From positions 34,038 through 98,037 of the forward strand of contig JBAZOT010000002.1 in the NCBI GenBank assembly GCA_041648575.1: a stretch of DNA of 64,000 nucleotides, in the 5' to 3' direction. This DNA comes from Patescibacteria group bacterium (GTDB lineage Bacteria > Patescibacteriota > Patescibacteriia > Veblenbacterales > UBA10138). Each line of letters opens with the position of its first letter. The first letter of the stretch is position 1. The notes under the pieces were generated by a model. It was not told the DNA's origin, did not search any database, and worked only from the letters and a program-made list of their open reading frames with translations. Of this stretch, positions 4,590 to 23,052 are shown in pieces. The position numbers were made by a program, and so were the translations under genes.

Positions 4590-7500
4590 TTATAATTTAC
4601 TGCACAAAATATAATATTTACCGACAGTATCGCGTCTCAACCCAACCATATACTCACCACTCCTACAGGCCTTGTTATCAACCCCTGTAAGATTAAGTCC
4701 AATATCTCCAACATCAATTCCACTACCCCCACCTTCTGGAATAACGTTAAACTTAATTGAGGTTTCCGACTCGCCCCAAATATTCTCCCCTGCTTTAATA
4801 TCTTTATTTATTATCAAATTACCACCGGTTGTTTGTTTATCCAAAAATAGTAAAATGTTATTAGTATCACCCACTGCCATAGTGAGTATGTCGGATCCGT
4901 CCGTAATACTGTAAATACCATTAAACGTAGAGTCAATAGATTGTTTATTAAAGTTCTCCCATTGGTTGTTAATTAGTGAACTACCGTTAAACTTCTGCTG
5001 CATAATTTTTCCGTCAACCCCAGCAACACGCACGTAATTATCAGAATTTATGGTCACTGTTCTTCCATTAACCCAATAATAAGGCAGTATTGCGGGTGTT
5101 ACTGACACGGGTGTTATACCAGCACTTGTAATGGTGAGTTGTGTTACTTTAGAGCTCCCGACCGCCACAGCAATAGCTGTCCAAACACCGCTAATCGGAT
5201 CATTCTTCCAGCTGATAACCTTTACGCCGTAGTAAGCGGCGGCATTAACATTACTGTCAACATTACCCGCCAAGGTGTTTATCTGCAACCAGTTAGCTCC
5301 TCCATCTAAGCTAGCCACTATCACCCCTCCAGCATTAGTCACCTTCCTATCTCCGACAGCCACCACCACCGCATTACCACTAATATCAACTGCCCCATCT
5401 ATGGCACGATAGTAGTAAGAAGTTGGCAACGACGGTGCTCCACTATTTGTCCAACTTGCCGTAGTACTACAAGCACTGACAGTCTTAATGTATTTGCCCA
5501 CTGCCCAAACTTTTGTGCTACTCTGGGCCCAAACGCCGTAATTATAACTATCAAGTGTTGCGCTTGTAGCTATCCAGGTACTACCCCCATCAATTGAGCA
5601 AGCGCCAGTAGTGCCGTTACCCACTGCCCACAGTGTGCTATTCGCACCTGTTACTGCATTGTAATAAATATTAGGTGCTCCTCCAGTAGCTCCCACAACG
5701 ATTGGATCACTAAACGTAACTCTAGCCGCAGCGCCAGTACCACTTACATTACCAACTGCAATAATTCCGCTAGTACCGACGACGGCAAATTTTCTTAAAG
5801 AAGCACTACCCCAGACACCGTTGATATTACTGGTACCAACTATAATACTGGCAATATCCAGCTCGCCCTGGGTCCAGGCTGAGTTCGGAAAATTTATGGT
5901 ACCGATATTGCCATCTGGCCCAACCGTCAGCACCTGCTGCAAGCCTGCTGTAGAAAATCCCGCAGCGCCAGCCCATTTTATATCACTCGTGCTCCCAGAA
6001 TATGGTACATATACTCCTCTATAAATTATAGTTTTGTTATCACTATTAATATCCCCCACCATAATTTTATTTGCTATCATCGTAGTAGCCGCGAAGTGCT
6101 TCCCATCAGATGTTAATGACAAATCAGATAACGCTCCATACACTAACGATTTAGTTTCTGTCCAACTATCACCTCCATCTGTTGATAGTACTATATGAGG
6201 TGGGGTCATTCCACCACGTGCTGCAATTATTACTTTGCCATCAAGAGTACCCACCATGTTCTGTAGTATATAAAAGGCCGTTTTACCTTGCGTTGACGGA
6301 ATCACATACCAGTCATATGTTCCACCAAGATTCCTAACTCCTTTAATAATTCCATCATTGTGCGTGGCAAGTATAATTACAGACCCATCGTTGTTTACCC
6401 ACCCAGTCTGTACCCGTTGATACACATCATTTGCCACTAGCCATTCTTTGCTCGGTCCATTAACAATAGTTGACAGTCCTGATTCAAACTTAATCAATGG
6501 CAGGAATGATTCGCCTGTCGGAATCCCCTGTACAACTATTAGGGCAAAGTTGTTGTTACCAATAATATCAACTTTTATGCAGTTTTTGCATATAGTACTC
6601 ACATCTCTCTTTGTCCAGGTTTGAAAATTAGGGCTATCGGTTGAAGTATAAAAAAAATTATTACCAGCATTTATCACAGCGAAACTACTGTTAGGCGCTA
6701 TCCAAACTTGCTTTAATGCCAATTGATTAGCAATCAAATTTTCATCTACATATTTTTTAATAGTTTGAAATTTCCAAGTACCATTAGCAGAGTTAAAAAC
6801 AGCCACTTGCGCATCCCGCTTCACAGCATAAGCACCACCTGGGGAAATAGCCAGCGCCAACGGCCTGGAATCTGGTGCTGGTGTAACCACGGAAGCAATA
6901 TCAACAAAATCAACCCCGGTTGGGAGATTAAGAGGTGCGGAGTTCGCCTGTATCATACCAGGCGCTTTAATATCATTATATACTTCCAAATTACGCTTAA
7001 CCGTAACGTCACCGCCCCCGCCTTGGCTAAGGTTAATATTTTCTATTGGATCATTTGGGTTATTTGGATCGACATACCGCCAAAGTGAGGGATTAGAGTT
7101 GGAACTCAATAATTCCGAACATGATCCATCCGACTTAAGTACACAGATCTGATCAGTAATCATTAGCTTACTTATAAGCAGGCCAGCCCAACCGGATATC
7201 TTATCGCTATAAAGACCAAAATTATCAACATTAGTCCGAAAAACAGCCAGGTTATTATCTACGCCGTCTCCTAGATCATCTTTAGCTACATTCACCACCA
7301 ATGCGTCACGCTGATAGAACGAACTAGTAATACTAGGATCAGGATTAAGCGGGTCGGCCGTTAGACTACTAGGATCTAAACGCAACTGACCAACCACATC
7401 TAGTGTAGTACCAGGCATATCGGTACCTATACCAACATACTGTGTTGCAAAATTTTTAGGGTAAATGGCTTTACCATCAGTTGAAGCTAACCATAAGCTC

Positions 7501-17806: not shown

Positions 17807-18672
17807 ATGATTGATTTGCACCTCCATTCTAGTTATTCTGATGGTATTTTGAATATAAAAGAATTATCCAAAAAAATTGTTAACGCTGGTATTTGTTACT
17901 GTTCCATTACGGATCATGATAATATTGATGGCGTTGATGAAATGGCTGATATTTTGCAGAAAAGCAAAGTTTATTTTATTAATGGGGTAGAGCTTTCCAC
18001 GCTGTACAAAAATCAAGAAGTTCATCTATTGATATATAATTTTAATTTACCGGCGGCAAAAAAATTATTCAAGAAAGAAACAGATTGGTTGAGAGCGAAA
18101 AAATTAAAGAATTAAAAGTGGCAATTGAATTATTTAAAAAACAGGGATTTGTGATAGACAATTCATTAATTCCAGAATCTAAAAAACCCATTGGCTTTAC
18201 CGTAGCTAAGAATATCTACCATAACAAAGAAACTCAAAAACTTTTGATTAAAAAACACGGCCACCTTCTCAATAAGCAGGAATTTTTTGATTATTATCAA
18301 GCTAAAGGCAGGCCATGTTACACCCCAAGAAGTGGAGTTAATGTAGCTTGGATACTTAAAAAATTTAACAATATAAGTAAGGACATTATTTTAGCACACC
18401 CTTTTACACCTGTTAGTTTCGTAATAAAACCATTAGAAGATAAGGATATTTATGATTTAATAAAAAAAGGAATTACAGGAATAGAAATTTATTACAAAAA
18501 TACTCCCCCTAAAAAAATTAGACTGCTGGAAAAAATTGTGAAGAAAAACAAACTTTTTTATACTGGCGGATCAGATTCACATGGTAAAAGTAATGATACT
18601 TCATTAGGTTATTATAATAATAATTCTAAAATACCTAGTTTTAGGTTAAGTAATTTAAGCTATAAAATATAA
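17807..18672 (+). CDS. PHP-domain metal-dependent phosphoesterase, split into two overlapping ORFs (17807..18115 and 18085..18672) by an apparent frameshift in an A-run
   Basis: N-terminal ORF has the PHP motif (DLHLHSSYSDG…ITDHDN). The C-terminal ORF has the rest (ILAHPF…GGSDSHG). The frames switch near gcgaaaaaattaaag. This is either a genuine pseudogene or a homopolymer sequencing error. Confidence 0.55.
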
Positions 18673-19978: not shown

Positions 19979-20184
19979 GGAGGCGTGCCCGAGTCCCCGA
20001 ACTAGAACATAGTTCAGTACGGGGCATGGGTTGAAGGGGACGGTCTTATCACCCTACGGGTGATCTCCCGAAGGGAGAAAAACATTTACAAAATTCACGG
20101 TGGGGTCGCATAGTGGTTTAGTGCACCGGTCTTGTCACCCTACAGGTGATCTCCCGAAGGGAGAAAAACATTCACAAAATTCAC
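19979..20184 (+). repeat. Array of tRNA 5'-half fragments, each fused to a conserved ~55-nt two-hairpin element; 86-bp tandem period (units at 20042 and 20128)
   Basis: Fragment X1 (19979..~20045) resembles the tRNA-Ser(TGA) 5' half through the anticodon loop, with a 30-nt hairpin inserted in the D-loop. Fragment X2 (20099..~20130) is a type-I tRNA 5' half. Each is followed by (a/g)tcaccctac(g/a)ggtgatctcccgaagggagaaaaacatt(t/c)acaaaattcacgg. No matching 3' halves are present. Confidence 0.5.
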
Positions 20185-20275
20185 GGTGGGGTGGCCGAGC
20201 GGTTGAAGGCGACAGTCTTGAAAACTGTTATACCTCAAAAAGGTATCGCGAGTTCGAATCTCGCCCCCACCGCCA
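20185..20275 (+). tRNA. tRNA-Ser (anticodon TGA), class II with long variable arm, CCA encoded
   Basis: Acceptor stem ggtgggg/ccccacc. Anticodon stem acagt/actgt with loop cttgaaa. T-arm gagttcgaatctc. 3' terminal gcca. Confidence 0.88.
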
Positions 20276-20288
20276 AAAATAAAGATAT

Positions 20289-20378
20289 GGAGAGGTGGCT
20301 GAGCGGTCTAAAGCAACAGGTTGCTAACCTGTGACCCTTTACCGGGTCCCGTGGGTTCGAATCCCACCCTCTCCGCCA
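20289..20378 (+). tRNA. tRNA-Ser (anticodon GCT), class II, CCA encoded
   Basis: Acceptor stem ggagagg/cctctcc. Anticodon stem acagg/cctgt with loop ttgctaa. T-arm gggttcgaatccc. 3' gcca. Confidence 0.88.
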
Positions 20379-20459
20379 TAACAACTTTTTATCGGACAAA
20401 GACCCAGCTACTTCGGCTGGGTCTTACCGTAGATCATATTTACGCCTACTATATAACAT

Positions 20460-21545
20460 ATGGAAAACTTAAGCGAGTCGGTCCAAGAATTTAAAGAGAA
20501 GTACGAGAAAATTGCTCAGAACACCAAGCGCCATCACTGGGTTCCGCAATTTTACTTAAAATTTTTTGCAGCAAACGAAGGCGGCGATCAAATATACATG
20601 TATCAATCAGGAAATAATCCGCTATTGGTTGGTATTGCGAATATTGCCACAAGTAAAGATTTATACACTTTTGAGGAAAAAGATACTGGGCAGAAAACTA
20701 GGGTGATGGAGGGGGTGTTTGCTGAGCACGAGGGGGCTGTAGCCACAGTGCTTGCTGAGGTAATTAGGAGTGGAAATCTACCCACAACAGAAAGAGAACG
20801 TTCTGATATTGCCGCCTTCGTTTCCTTACTGCGGGTGCGGGGGCCATCATTTAATGAATGGCTTCAAAATATGGAGATTGAACATATTAAATTGTTCCAA
20901 CAAATCCAAACTGAACATGCGGATTCCCTTAGAGAGGAATTTAAAAAAGTAGGGGTAACTTTTTCATCTGATGAGGAGTTTGAAGAGATGAGAAAATTTA
21001 TGCATGATCCAAAAAATTATTCCATCAAGATGAGTGGGGGTGAAGGGCATTATTTTAAGCAAGCTATGGACTTGAGTAAGGATTTTTACCAAATTCTAAT
21101 GAGCAAAAAATCATGGCACTTACTTATTGCGCCACATAACCGTCATTTCATTACTTCAGACAATCCTGTCGTAATCCAGGAGCCAGTAGATTGCCCACCA
21201 CACGTAGCTGGAGGTGTTCTAAATGGTACTGTATTATTAACGATTGCACCGAAATTTTGCTTAGCATTTCGGAGAATGCCCCTTAACAGCCAAAATATCC
21301 TACTAACAAGGGAAAACGTAAATCACATTAACCGATCAATAGCTAGCGTCGCTCGTAGACAGATCTATAGTCACCTCAATTCGAAAGATTGGGCTATTCT
21401 ATGTAATGAGTATTTGACTGGCAATGAGAGCAAGGTGACCATAAAGAGGCTGGCACCATTTGCGCCATACTATATGGCACAAAGTGTCCCCCAACTCAAA
21501 GAAGCGGATGGTTTAAAAAATAATTCAGTATTACCACTTAAATAA
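20460..21545 (+). CDS. DUF4238-family protein (HHWVPQFYLKFF N-terminal signature); candidate antiphage effector of the Rst_DUF4238 type
   Basis: The N-terminal motif H-x-V/I-P-Q-F-Y-L-+-x-F is characteristic of DUF4238. 361 aa. Sits immediately 3' of the tRNA-Ser genes and the fragment array. Confidence 0.55.
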   Translation: MENLSESVQEFKEKYEKIAQNTKRHHWVPQFYLKFFAANEGGDQIYMYQSGNNPLLVGIANIATSKDLYTFEEKDTGQKTRVMEGVFAEHEGAVATVLAEVIRSGNLPTTERERSDIAAFVSLLRVRGPSFNEWLQNMEIEHIKLFQQIQTEHADSLREEFKKVGVTFSSDEEFEEMRKFMHDPKNYSIKMSGGEGHYFKQAMDLSKDFYQILMSKKSWHLLIAPHNRHFITSDNPVVIQEPVDCPPHVAGGVLNGTVLLTIAPKFCLAFRRMPLNSQNILLTRENVNHINRSIASVARRQIYSHLNSKDWAILCNEYLTGNESKVTIKRLAPFAPYYMAQSVPQLKEADGLKNNSVLPLK

Positions 21546-21580
21546 ACTGTGTTTAGGGGTATCTAATTCACTTTAAATTT

Positions 21581-22348
21581 ATGCCCACAAAAGAACAATT
21601 AGACTTTTTCCAATCATTATCTGAGCAAAAGAAAATTAGGAGAATTAAAAAAGCCCTTGAGAGTTTGATAAGTGTAAGTAAACGACAACTTTTCCTTTTA
21701 GACAAATATGAAAAATCGGCTCGACAAAAAGAAATGGGATTTGCTTATTTTTTTCGTACACTGAAGTATACGTGGGAGAATGTAGATTTTGCATTAGATT
21801 TAAGTAGAAACAGAAATAGGCGCTTTAATATATATCCAACCCGCCTGATTTGTGAAAACGTGTTTAGGCTAGAGTACTATATAAAACAAAAAAAGAAGGA
21901 ACAAAATGAAATCTGCCTTTGGGAAATGCTTCGGTTAATGAAGAGGTACTATGATGAATATGGCGACCTCTATTATAGGAATTCATATGAAGGAATGGTT
22001 AGAGATTTAGGGGAAAAAGGTACTACCTATCCAAATATTGATGATAAGACTGCATACCATGACCCGTTTCCTTCTATAGAGCAGTTGGTTACTAAGAGTA
22101 ATTTACCATCAACAAAAGGTTTTTATATTCATTATAGGTATTTATGTGAGGGGCACCATGGAAAATTATTAGCTATTTATATAGCTGACAACGAAATTGC
22201 CCAATGCAGGAGAAATCTACTTTTGATAGCTTTATTTTGTAAGTGGCTTTTACTTATCACTGATTCTCATATAGAGCATGCCACAAAAGAAATGGTGGCG
22301 GTTACAATAAAAAAGGCTGATGATATTATATTTTCCATTACAAATTAA
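21581..22348 (+). CDS. Hypothetical protein (255 aa), 35 nt downstream of the DUF4238 gene and probably co-transcribed
   Basis: No recognisable motif. Basic, Tyr/Arg-rich. Same strand as the DUF4238 gene with a short gap. Confidence 0.35.
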   Translation: MPTKEQLDFFQSLSEQKKIRRIKKALESLISVSKRQLFLLDKYEKSARQKEMGFAYFFRTLKYTWENVDFALDLSRNRNRRFNIYPTRLICENVFRLEYYIKQKKKEQNEICLWEMLRLMKRYYDEYGDLYYRNSYEGMVRDLGEKGTTYPNIDDKTAYHDPFPSIEQLVTKSNLPSTKGFYIHYRYLCEGHHGKLLAIYIADNEIAQCRRNLLLIALFCKWLLLITDSHIEHATKEMVAVTIKKADDIIFSITN

Positions 22349-22515
22349 GCTGACCCACGTGCTTAAAATTGCCCTCTATCCGAACGCTCAAAAATCCCTT
22401 ATAATACCTCTGAAACGGTGGTACTAGACCTACACACACCGCTAGAATAAATTATCAGATTGGCCTGTAGACAAAGGTTTTTTTGTTTAAGGAAGAAATT
22501 ATAAATCTAGATTAG

Positions 22516-22545
22516 TTGCCAAAACAAACAAATGCTTTCTATAAT
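22516..22545 (+). promoter_or_regulatory. Sigma70-like promoter (TTGCCA-18nt-TATAAT) ending 6 nt before the greA ATG, which would give a leaderless or near-leaderless transcript
   Basis: -35 TTGCCA at 22516 and -10 TATAAT at 22540, against the annotated ATG at 22552. Confidence 0.3.
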
Positions 22546-22551
22546 GATTAA

Positions 22552-23052
22552 ATGCAAACTCCTATCAGAAAAAGTGGCAAATACACTAATCTAAAATCAG
22601 ATCCTTACTTAACGCCTGATAAATTTAACGAACTTAAAAGCATATTAACTAAGCTTAAAAAAATTACCCGCCCAGCCGCCATGGCCGAAGTTAAAAGACT
22701 AGGCGAAATGGGTGATTTTTCGGAAAACGCCGCCTACTCTATAGCCAAAGGACGTTTAAGATATACAAATGAAAAAATTACTGCTTTACAAAATCATTTG
22801 GAAAACGCAGTTATAATAAAATCAATCAAAAATAAGGATACGGTTCAACTTGGACACAATGTTACTATTGAAAATAATGGCGATCAAAAAACCTATCTGA
22901 TACTAGGATCAATGGAAACTAATCCTCTAGAAAATATTATCTCGCTTCACTCCCCGCTAGGTCTGGCGCTGATAGGACACAAAGTTGGTGATAAAATAAA
23001 AATATCCCTAAAAAATAAAACGGTGGAATATAAAATAATCAATATAAAATGA
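22552..23052 (+). CDS. greA: Transcription elongation factor GreA
   Basis: GreA N-terminal coiled coil with conserved acidic tip (GDFSENAAY). C-terminal FKBP-like domain. Confidence 0.85.
   Translation: MQTPIRKSGKYTNLKSDPYLTPDKFNELKSILTKLKKITRPAAMAEVKRLGEMGDFSENAAYSIAKGRLRYTNEKITALQNHLENAVIIKSIKNKDTVQLGHNVTIENNGDQKTYLILGSMETNPLENIISLHSPLGLALIGHKVGDKIKISLKNKTVEYKIINIK

What the first reader, a model, noticed from the sequence alone, without database searches (positions are those of the whole stretch)
20460..22348. DUF4238-type gene plus unknown 255-aa partner immediately 3' of the tRNA-Ser hotspot: candidate two-gene defence islet
ORF 20460..21545 starts with the hallmark HHWVPQFYLKFF signature of DUF4238. 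This family was reported as a single-gene antiphage system (Rst_DUF4238) from phage and satellite hotspots. Here it sits right after a tRNA integration scar and is followed, 35 nt later on the same strand, by a 255-aa protein with no recognisable domain. Both lie upstream of housekeeping greA. The tight pairing suggests either an undescribed two-component variant or a cargo pair of a decayed integrative element.
Basis: partly seen in the sequence, partly recalled or inferred. Interest (0 to 1): 0.75.

Follow-up and report, generated by a model that had tools for sequence, protein, structure and literature searches.

The report
DUF4238 gene with later-inserted HEPN-like neighbour
Next to two serine tRNA genes of a Patescibacteria genome sit a true DUF4238 (phage-defence-type) gene and a rare HEPN-like gene, but the second is a later 819-base insertion into the tail of the first and not its dedicated partner, so this is two independent accessory genes and not a new two-gene defence system.

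Summary
ORF A (20460-21545) is a full-length DUF4238 protein (Pfam E 2e-38). ORF B (21581-22348) follows 35 nt later, two tRNA-Ser genes lie upstream and greA lies downstream.

No B-family gene lies within the flanks of any of about 75 other DUF4238 loci. None of six other B contexts has a DUF4238 neighbour, and that includes the closest homologues of each gene (76-84% identity).

Alignment with the two closest A loci shows that B arrived as a precise 819-nt insertion (21531-22349) into the 3' end of A. It replaced A's tail with LPLK*. The conserved post-A element "X" now lies after B.

B belongs to a tiny family (76 cluster representatives among 1.84 billion). It is a divergent DUF5677 branch with a confident all-helical model whose best PDB matches are HEPN domains, but the canonical Rx4-6H arginine is not conserved.

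What is conserved with A is the tRNA-Ser gene itself. Six of nine distinct close loci have it, with a shared about 30-nt trailer, and some carry repeated pseudo-tRNA 3' ends. That suggests a tRNA-Ser-linked recombination hotspot. The window has no integrase and no attR.

This is a modest finding: a new member of a known kind.

The parts
19980..20212 (+). Two truncated tRNA-like 5' halves and a tandem 86-nt repeat (20041-20126 and 20127-20212). Each unit carries a double-hairpin motif (20050-20078 and 20136-20164). This is context for the recombination history of the tRNA-Ser locus.
   Evidence: the repeat finder family D1 at 86% identity. The motif occurs twice against 0 expected. The same motif lies inside a degenerate pseudo-tRNA-Ser in L009 at 4735-4763. 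ARAGORN and Rfam call no tRNA here.
20185..20275 (+). tRNA-Ser(tga)
   Evidence: ARAGORN; Rfam tRNA 61.3 bits.
20289..20378 (+). tRNA-Ser(gct), the tRNA to which the DUF4238 module is joined
   Evidence: ARAGORN; Rfam tRNA 61.4 bits. Homologous A genes follow a tRNA-Ser in L008, L009, L010, L012 and L017.
20379..20459 (+). Conserved non-coding trailer between the tRNA and A (TAACAACTTTTTATCGGACAAAGACCC plus the hairpin GACCCAGC/GCTGGGTC). It travels with A, not with tRNA-Ser genes in general.
   Evidence: Alignment A5 has invariant CGCCA..A..T..TATC..ACCC across 7 junctions that involve three anticodons. tRNA-Ser genes not followed by A lack this trailer.
20460..21545 (+). Gene A, a DUF4238 protein of 361 aa. 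Codons 1-357 (up to 21530) are native. The last 4 codons and the stop (21531-21545, LPLK*) come from the inserted segment.
21531..22349 (+). 819-nt inserted segment: a 50-nt leader, gene B and 1 nt. L008 has only 3 nt and L009 only 5 nt at this position.
   Evidence: Local alignments: window 21309-21530 = L008 1105-1326 and window 22350-22399 = L008 1330-1380; window 21301-21530 = L009 5704-5933 and window 22352-22362 = L009 5939-5949. Leader similarity to L007 covers about 45 nt.
21581..22348 (+). Gene B, 255 aa. All-helical, HEPN-like fold, divergent DUF5677 branch. R88 and H193 are invariant.
22350..22410 (+). Element X (CTGACCCACGTGCTTAAAATTGCCCTC...CTCAAAAATCCCT). This conserved non-coding element directly follows, or overlaps the end of, A in L008 and L009. 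It directly follows B here and in L007.
   Evidence: 72% identity to L008, against about 42% identity at synonymous sites. No significant hairpin. No similarity to tRNA-Ser.
22516..23052 (+). Promoter-like site for greA (22516-22545, 11 of 12 matches) and greA itself (22552-23052). This is the housekeeping right-hand neighbour and not part of the islet.
   Evidence: The genes upstream of greA differ in relatives with 66-69% identical GreA.

Best explanation
The locus is a small accessory islet in the 3' flank of tRNA-Ser. It was built in two separate steps, not as one two-gene system.

Step 1. A DUF4238 module occupies the tRNA-Ser flank. The module is tRNA-Ser 3' end, a conserved about 30-nt trailer with a hairpin, gene A, and element X. 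The same arrangement is seen in several other Patescibacteria.

Step 2. A single-gene cassette of about 0.8 kb carrying B later inserted exactly between A's coding end and X. It swapped A's non-conserved tail for LPLK* and put B under read-through transcription from A. There is a 35-nt gap with no terminator and no promoter-like site.

Function of A (inferred). A most likely works alone as a DUF4238-type antiphage effector, like the single-gene P2-hotspot protein that blocks T7. Its chemistry is unknown. It has a fold unlike any solved structure, with conserved H26, E84, E91, R127, the T232-S-D-N-P motif, R271 and N291, which suggests an enzyme.

Function of B (inferred). B most likely is an independent HEPN-fold protein, either an RNA-binding or RNase-like toxin/defence module or its regulatory relative. 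Its candidate centre is R88, E92, E115 and H193.

What is shown: the family assignments, the insertion, the lack of co-occurrence, the tRNA-Ser linkage, and purifying selection.

What is inferred: antiphage activity, the enzymatic roles, co-transcription, and site-specific recombination at tRNA-Ser.
For: - DUF4238 assignment.
- No co-occurrence: a B-family HMM finds B only in the window and in the loci fetched through B, and in none of about 75 DUF4238 loci. The six other B contexts are AbiEii, rpsG/fusA, dCMP deaminase, a 627-aa unknown, dnaX/tRNA-Gln and DUF6602/MazF. The closest A homologues (78-84%) are followed by YaaC or a 169-aa gene. The closest B homologue (76%) has no A remnant nearby.
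- Insertion mapped to the nucleotide.
- tRNA-Ser linkage, trailer and repeated pseudo-3' ends.
- HEPN-like fold for B.
- Family invariants.
- Purifying selection.
- A single DUF4238 gene protects against T7: PMC9122126.
- The P2-type loci L070-77 with gpA upstream were recovered as distant relatives.
- No terminator between A and B and no + strand promoter-like site before B.
Against: - A is only about 25% identical to the validated P2-type protein. It matches the PADLOC model only partially, so defence activity is extrapolated.
- A DUF5677 ORF tested in E. faecalis gave no protection (PMC12632615).
- No integrase, attR or strong compositional signal exists in the window, so the hotspot mechanism is not demonstrated here.
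- Only a handful of B contexts exist, most on short contigs.
- Co-transcription could still have created a functional interplay in this one genome.
Confidence: 0.65

Rival explanations
1. A and B form a newly assembled but truly functional two-component system. For example, DUF4238 acts as sensor or effector with a swappable HEPN-type partner, B being one of several alternatives.
For: - The 35-nt gap with no terminator makes co-transcription likely.
- DUF4238 domains do occur in a multi-component TIR system in E. coli (PMC11350192).
- Several distant DUF4238 genes have tight same-strand neighbours. Some of these carry domains I recall as HEPN-clan: Abi_C in L027/28, weak DUF4145 in L032, and a weak Csx1 C-terminal hit in L051.
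Against: - No recurrence of the A+B pair in any of about 75 DUF4238 loci or 6 other B loci.
- B was inserted secondarily and truncated A's tail.
- Profile comparison of the B family with YaaC, the Abi_C protein, the DUF4145-like protein and the 564-aa neighbour gives probability below 1%.
- HEPN domains are common in variable regions anyway.
- The HEPN-clan membership of Abi_C and DUF4145 rests on my memory and was not tested here.
Confidence: 0.1
2. B is a selfish or antagonistic insertion. It could be an addiction-type toxin or antitoxin, or an inhibitor that hitch-hikes on A's promoter or neutralises A, and not a defence gene in its own right.
For: - B is a compact, precisely bounded single-gene insertion without its own promoter-like site.
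- Relatives lie beside toxin or NTase genes: AbiEii in L001 and MazF in L014.
- One relative lies inside the conserved rpsG-fusA interval.
- One relative is fused to a Nudix domain.
- One relative is a pseudogene.
Against: - No cognate small partner gene is conserved beside B.
- B is under purifying selection with an invariant R88/H193 pair, which fits an enzyme as well as a toxin.
- There is no evidence of any effect on A.
Confidence: 0.12
3. The conserved tRNA-Ser-DUF4238 adjacency reflects a functional link to tRNA-Ser, or DUF4238 acting in its own site-specific insertion, and not passive hotspot cargo. On this reading A is not primarily an antiphage effector here.
For: - The only elements conserved together across loci are the tRNA-Ser 3' end, the trailer, A and X. 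All other neighbours differ.
- A 23%-identical DUF4238 in L039 also directly follows a tRNA-Ser(gct).
- Repeated pseudo-tRNA 3' ends lie next to A with no recognisable integrase nearby in most loci.
- The DUF4238 fold matches nothing in the PDB.
Against: - Three close loci (L016, L087, L088) and nearly all distant DUF4238 loci, including the P2-hotspot ones, lack any tRNA.
- In L010, L012 and L017 a strong terminator separates the tRNA from A.
- L010 has a large serine recombinase two genes away.
- tRNA genes are classic island integration sites.
Confidence: 0.08
4. A and B are the remaining cargo of one integrative element that entered at tRNA-Ser as a unit.
For: Position directly 3' of tRNA genes, and the tRNA fragment repeats upstream.
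Against: - A and B have separate histories and different GC content, 0.404 against 0.332.
- There is no integrase within about 5 kb.
- There is no second copy of the tRNA 3' end anywhere in the 64-kb window.
- X is not a tRNA-derived repeat.
Confidence: 0.05

Closest known systems
Rst_DUF4238 / PADLOC DUF4238-Pers (single-gene antiphage system from the P2 prophage hotspot; Rousset et al. 2022, PMC9122126)
   Same: Same Pfam domain over its full length. Gene A is a stand-alone gene in its native module. It lies in a variable region, with restriction-modification, recombinase, toxin and Schlafen-type neighbours in related loci.
   Different: Only about 25% identity over residues 23-269 to the P2-type protein. 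The PADLOC model matches partially (4-221 of 309). The host is a Patescibacteria genome, not a prophage. The gene is joined to a tRNA-Ser gene through a conserved trailer, and it carries a secondary insertion at its 3' end. Activity is untested.
HEPN superfamily (HEPN/MNT toxins, Csm6/Csx1, AbiV, KNTase C-terminal domain)
   Different: There is no sequence-level match to any HEPN family or structure. The motif position reads R186-x6-H193 but the arginine is present in only 28 of 66 members. The invariant arginine is R88, on another helix. B is about twice the size of a minimal HEPN domain.
Pfam DUF5677 (PF18928)
   Same: Weak, consistent matches over B residues 87-199. 14 of 66 family members hit it, best E 2.8e-5.
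   Different: Every match to the window protein is below Pfam's gathering score (17.8 against 27.1 bits). DUF5677 itself has no known function, and one tested ORF gave no phage protection (PMC12632615).
tRNA-linked genomic islands and defence hotspots (integration at the 3' end of tRNA genes)
   Same: The module abuts the CCA end of a tRNA gene. The sequence next to the tRNA is conserved. L017 and L009 carry tandem copies of a pseudo-tRNA 3' end plus trailer. Cargo beyond A is variable.
   Different: The window has no integrase and no attR copy of the tRNA end. The right-hand conserved element X is unrelated to the tRNA. In the window the extra tRNA fragments are 5' halves that lie upstream.

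Membership tests
DUF4238 (PF14022) | Score above Pfam's gathering threshold across the domain | tested here: met
   132.7 bits against a cut-off of 27; profile positions 1-278 of 281; E 2.3e-38.
DUF4238 (PF14022) | N-terminal H-x-[VI]-P-x-x-Y-L motif and the central F-x-T-S-D-N-P motif | tested here: met
   HHWVPQFYL at residues 25-33. F230, T232, S233, D234 and P236 are invariant in the 29-sequence alignment.
Rst_DUF4238 antiphage system | A single DUF4238 gene is sufficient for defence (single-gene architecture) | tested here: inconclusive
   Related loci show A without any conserved partner, which fits a single-gene unit. Sufficiency for defence cannot be tested in silico.
Rst_DUF4238 antiphage system | Close similarity to the experimentally validated P2-hotspot protein, or a match to the system's HMM | tested here: inconclusive
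   PADLOC DUF4238-Pers E 1.1e-10 but partial (4-221 of 309). 25% identity to the phage pro483 / P2-type proteins. The DefenseFinder model was not available.
Rst_DUF4238 antiphage system | Protection against phage (T7 in the original report) | not testable with these tools
   Needs cloning and plaque assays. The literature basis is PMC9122126.
HEPN superfamily (for B) | Four-helix up-down HEPN fold | tested here: met
HEPN superfamily (for B) | Conserved catalytic Rx4-6H motif | tested here: not met
   H193 is invariant (66 of 66). The arginine six residues before it (R186) is R in 28, Q in 19 and other residues in 19 of 66. The invariant R88 lies on a different helix.
HEPN superfamily (for B) | Sequence or profile match to a HEPN family | tested here: not met
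   No HEPN family in the Pfam, NCBIfam, PADLOC or PHROGs scans. No PDB sequence hit.
DUF5677 (PF18928) (for B) | Score above Pfam's gathering threshold | tested here: not met
   17.8 bits against 27.1 for the window protein. 14 of 66 relatives give weak hits, best E 2.8e-5. This makes B a distant relative, not a member by Pfam's rule.
   0 of about 75 DUF4238 loci contain a B-family ORF within 4-5 kb. 0 of 6 other B contexts contain DUF4238.
tRNA-targeting integrative element | Integrase gene, plus direct repeats of the tRNA 3' end at both ends | tested here: not met
   The window has no integrase-like gene within about 5 kb. The tRNA-Ser(gct) 3' end occurs once in 64 kb even with 3 mismatches allowed. 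Related loci L017 and L009 do show repeated 3' ends plus trailers, and L010 has a serine recombinase.
Integron-type gene cassette (considered for B) | attC-like imperfect hairpin at the 3' end of the cassette | tested here: not met
   Single-strand DNA folds of the region after B in the window and in L007, and after A in L008, are no more stable than shuffles (z -0.94, -0.89, +0.36).

The most novel reading that the evidence does not exclude
The tRNA-Ser 3' end, the conserved trailer, DUF4238 and element X could form a self-contained unit in Patescibacteria whose biology is tied to tRNA-Ser. One version is a new kind of recombinase-poor, tRNA-Ser-targeted cassette system in which X and the trailer are the recombination sites. 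B-type HEPN genes would then be 0.8-kb single-gene cassettes that insert precisely at X. The other version is a DUF4238 effector that acts on or senses tRNA-Ser. In that case the A/B juxtaposition would be one snapshot of a modular cassette hotspot not yet described in ultra-small bacteria.
Probability: 0.1. Interest if true: 0.65.

Novelty: new member of a known kind. Interest (0 to 1): 0.33.

Why it matters
The two-gene system would have been a new DUF4238 architecture, but the evidence says it is not one. That removes a false lead.

Three things remain useful:
- A clear example that tight spacing on one strand can come from a recent single-gene insertion, not from a functional operon.
- A Patescibacteria-specific DUF4238 subfamily whose only conserved companions are a tRNA-Ser gene, a short trailer and a downstream element X. 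This hints at how accessory and defence genes are slotted into these tiny genomes, which have few recognisable mobile-element genes.
- A very rare, well-folded HEPN-like family (a divergent DUF5677 branch) with an invariant Arg/His pair. It moves as a cassette of about 0.8 kb and could be tested as a toxin or defence gene.

DUF4238 still has no mechanism and no structural relative in the PDB, so any biochemical handle on the family would be valuable.

Tried and rejected
- **Conserved A+B pairing: rejected.** Based on context look-ups for 4 B and 5 A homologues, 2 genome loci, and 53 metagenome plus 16 viral DUF4238 loci scanned with a B HMM.
- **All DUF4238 partners are distant B relatives: rejected.** hhalign probabilities are below 1%.
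- **B is of phage origin: no support.** No viral contig, no phage record and no BFVD fold match.
- **X is an attR copy of the tRNA end: rejected** by a shuffle test.
- **X is an attC-like hairpin: rejected**.
- **Direct repeats flank A+B in the window:** only short, chance-level matches.
- **Empty-site comparison through GreA relatives: uninformative.** The nearest are only 66-69% identical and synteny is not conserved.
- **Compositional evidence for foreign origin: weak**.
- **PADLOC scan of ten other DUF4238 neighbours: nothing solid**.
- **Technical failures.** The afdb50 fold library was unavailable. Broad B alignments were too divergent for locus scans. A fixed-spacing DNA pattern for the trailer missed indel variants.
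- **Fold of the pseudo-tRNA region:** stable (z -5.2) but not interpretable.

Full report
**Observation**

The window is part of a 103.7-kb contig of a Patescibacteria MAG; the source names for the two proteins appear. ORF A (20460-21545, 361 aa) and ORF B (21581-22348, 255 aa) are present as described, 35 nt apart on the + strand. They lie behind tRNA-Ser(tga) 20185-20275 and tRNA-Ser(gct) 20289-20378 and ahead of greA at 22552-23052.

A matches Pfam DUF4238 end to end (E 2.3e-38) and PADLOC's DUF4238-Pers partially (E 1.1e-10). B has no family hit above threshold. Its only signal is a weak DUF5677 match at 17.8 bits against a cut-off of 27.1.

Both genes are under purifying selection. For A against L009, dN is 0.075 and dS is 0.57. 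For B against L007, dN is 0.145 with synonymous sites saturated. Composition is only mildly unusual for A (GC 0.404, GC3 z +1.7) and ordinary for B (GC 0.332).

**Is the pair conserved?**

No. B's family is tiny: 11 proteins in a 5.8-billion-protein search and 76 cluster representatives among 1.84 billion with a profile. The other B contexts are all different:
- behind an AbiEii nucleotidyltransferase gene (L001);
- inside the rpsG-fusA interval (L002-5);
- behind a dCMP deaminase gene (L006);
- behind a unique 627-aa gene (L007);
- behind dnaX/HTH/tRNA-Gln as a pseudogene (L013, Niyogibacteria);
- among DUF6602 and MazF genes (L014, Saccharibacteria).

None has a DUF4238 neighbour.

In the other direction, the close A subfamily (55-84% identity) is followed by YaaC, a 169-aa gene, a convergent 449-aa gene plus a serine recombinase, a 564-aa gene, or a convergent 195-aa gene. 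An HMM of the B family searched against all ORFs of 84 fetched loci, including 53 metagenomic and 16 viral DUF4238 loci, hit only the window and the loci fetched through B. Profile comparisons show that the other DUF4238 neighbours are not hidden B relatives.

**How the pair arose**

Nucleotide alignment with the two closest A loci gives a clean answer. Window 21309-21530 aligns with L008 1105-1326, and window 22350-22399 aligns with L008 1330-1380. Those two L008 segments are 3 nt apart. The same holds for L009, where the segments are 5 nt apart.

So the 819 nt at 21531-22349 are an insertion relative to L008 and L009. This segment holds the last four codons and stop of A, a leader, B and one further base. 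In L008 and L009 the A reading frame runs on into a conserved non-coding element X (CTGACCCACGTGCYTAAAATT...AAAAATCCCT), giving non-conserved tails. In the window the tail is LPLK* and X lies directly after B.

X is better conserved (72% identity to L008) than synonymous sites in the adjoining genes, so it is probably functional. It is not hairpin-like and not tRNA-derived. The closest B homologue (L007, 76%) shares about 45 nt of leader and an X-like sequence after its stop codon, but it has no trace of A. No terminator and no + strand promoter-like site lie between A and B. B is therefore probably transcribed by read-through from A. That makes it an operon by accident of insertion.

**What A's module is**

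In six of nine distinct loci of the close subfamily, A lies directly 3' of a tRNA-Ser gene on the same strand. These six are the window, L008, L009, L010, L012 and L017. The anticodons are gct, gga and tga. L016 and the two contigs carrying P0032 (L087 and L088) are exceptions. A DUF4238 gene only 23% identical (L039) also follows a tRNA-Ser(gct).

The first about 30 nt after the CCA end are conserved across these junctions (alignment A5). They are absent from tRNA-Ser genes not followed by A. L017 carries a 31-nt perfect direct repeat of the tRNA 3' end plus trailer, along with further fragments. L009 has a degenerate pseudo-tRNA-Ser between the real tRNA and A.

This looks like repeated site-specific recombination at tRNA-Ser. 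However, the window has no integrase and no second copy of the tRNA end. GreA relatives are too distant (66-69%) to provide an empty site, and they show no conserved synteny.

**What the proteins may do**

One relative is fused to a Nudix domain and one sits behind an AbiEii gene. That echoes the HEPN/nucleotidyltransferase theme. A DUF5677 ORF tested in Enterococcus did not protect against phage (PMC12632615).

**Verdict**

The sequence features are real. The DUF4238 call is correct. The "two-gene defence islet" is two independent accessory modules, and the second was inserted into the first. Its novelty is that of a new member of a known kind.

Two open side-questions remain: the tRNA-Ser/trailer/X framing of DUF4238 in Patescibacteria, and the mechanism that moves 0.8-kb B cassettes. 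I put the probability that these reflect a truly new cassette or tRNA-linked system at about 0.1.

Noticed in passing
window 19980-20212; L009 4735-4763: Upstream of tRNA-Ser(tga) lie two truncated tRNA-like 5' halves. Each ends at an anticodon-loop-like CTT and is followed by a 29-nt double-hairpin motif (CACCCTACRGGTGATCTCCCGAAGGGAGA), arranged as a tandem 86-nt repeat. The same motif sits inside the T-loop region of a degenerate pseudo-tRNA-Ser in L009. It is absent from viral contigs. Its origin is unknown: a mini-insertion, a recombination scar, or something else.
   Followed up: partly
L019 3950-6142; L024 3-2561; L039 1834-4293; L066 310-4681: Several distant DUF4238 genes are followed at 42-51 nt by DNA methyltransferase genes (EcoRI_methylase, N6_N4_Mtase). 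One is preceded by an MmeI-type enzyme gene. Some DUF4238 proteins may therefore be the nuclease-like partner of a methylase.
   Followed up: partly
L017 309-700: An array of a tRNA-Ser(tga) 3' end plus trailer. The 31-nt sequence cgccatcacgatttagtatcgtgcaaccca occurs twice, 160 nt apart. Between the copies lie a third trailer-like copy and T-arm-like fragments, all ahead of the DUF4238 gene. This looks like accumulated att remnants.
   Followed up: partly
window 22350-22410; L008 1330-1380; L009 5939-5990; L007 3073-3135: Element X is conserved at the nucleotide level beyond synonymous-site conservation. It has no hairpin, no tRNA similarity and no clear promoter. Its core GACCCACGTG also forms the terminator hairpin after tRNA-Ser(tga) in L012. 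Function unknown.
   Followed up: partly
L002 2191-9500 (also L003-L005): A B homologue sits at the left edge of an insertion of about 6 kb between rpsG and fusA in the normally conserved str operon. It is accompanied by a small kinase-like AAA gene, a 356-aa unknown and an ABC-F gene.
   Followed up: no
L013 4986-5759: The Niyogibacteria B homologue carries an in-frame stop codon (a pseudogene or an assembly error). It shares its downstream gene with L001 but not its upstream context.
   Followed up: no
window 17807-18672: A PHP-domain gene appears split into two overlapping ORFs: 17807-18115 holds the N-terminal half of the PHP domain, and 18085-18672 has no domain hit. This may be a frameshift, a pseudogene or a sequencing error.
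   Followed up: no
L087 5246-8074: A 55%-identical DUF4238 gene lies beside a divergent Peptidase_M78 (ImmA/IrrE-like) + DUF4411 pair and has no tRNA nearby. This shows the subfamily also occupies other variable regions.
   Followed up: no
P0053 (B-family representative): A 424-aa protein fuses an N-terminal Nudix hydrolase domain to a full B-family domain (residues 170-421). Single members of the family also carry SEC-C, NOV_C or SUKH_6 hits.
   Followed up: no
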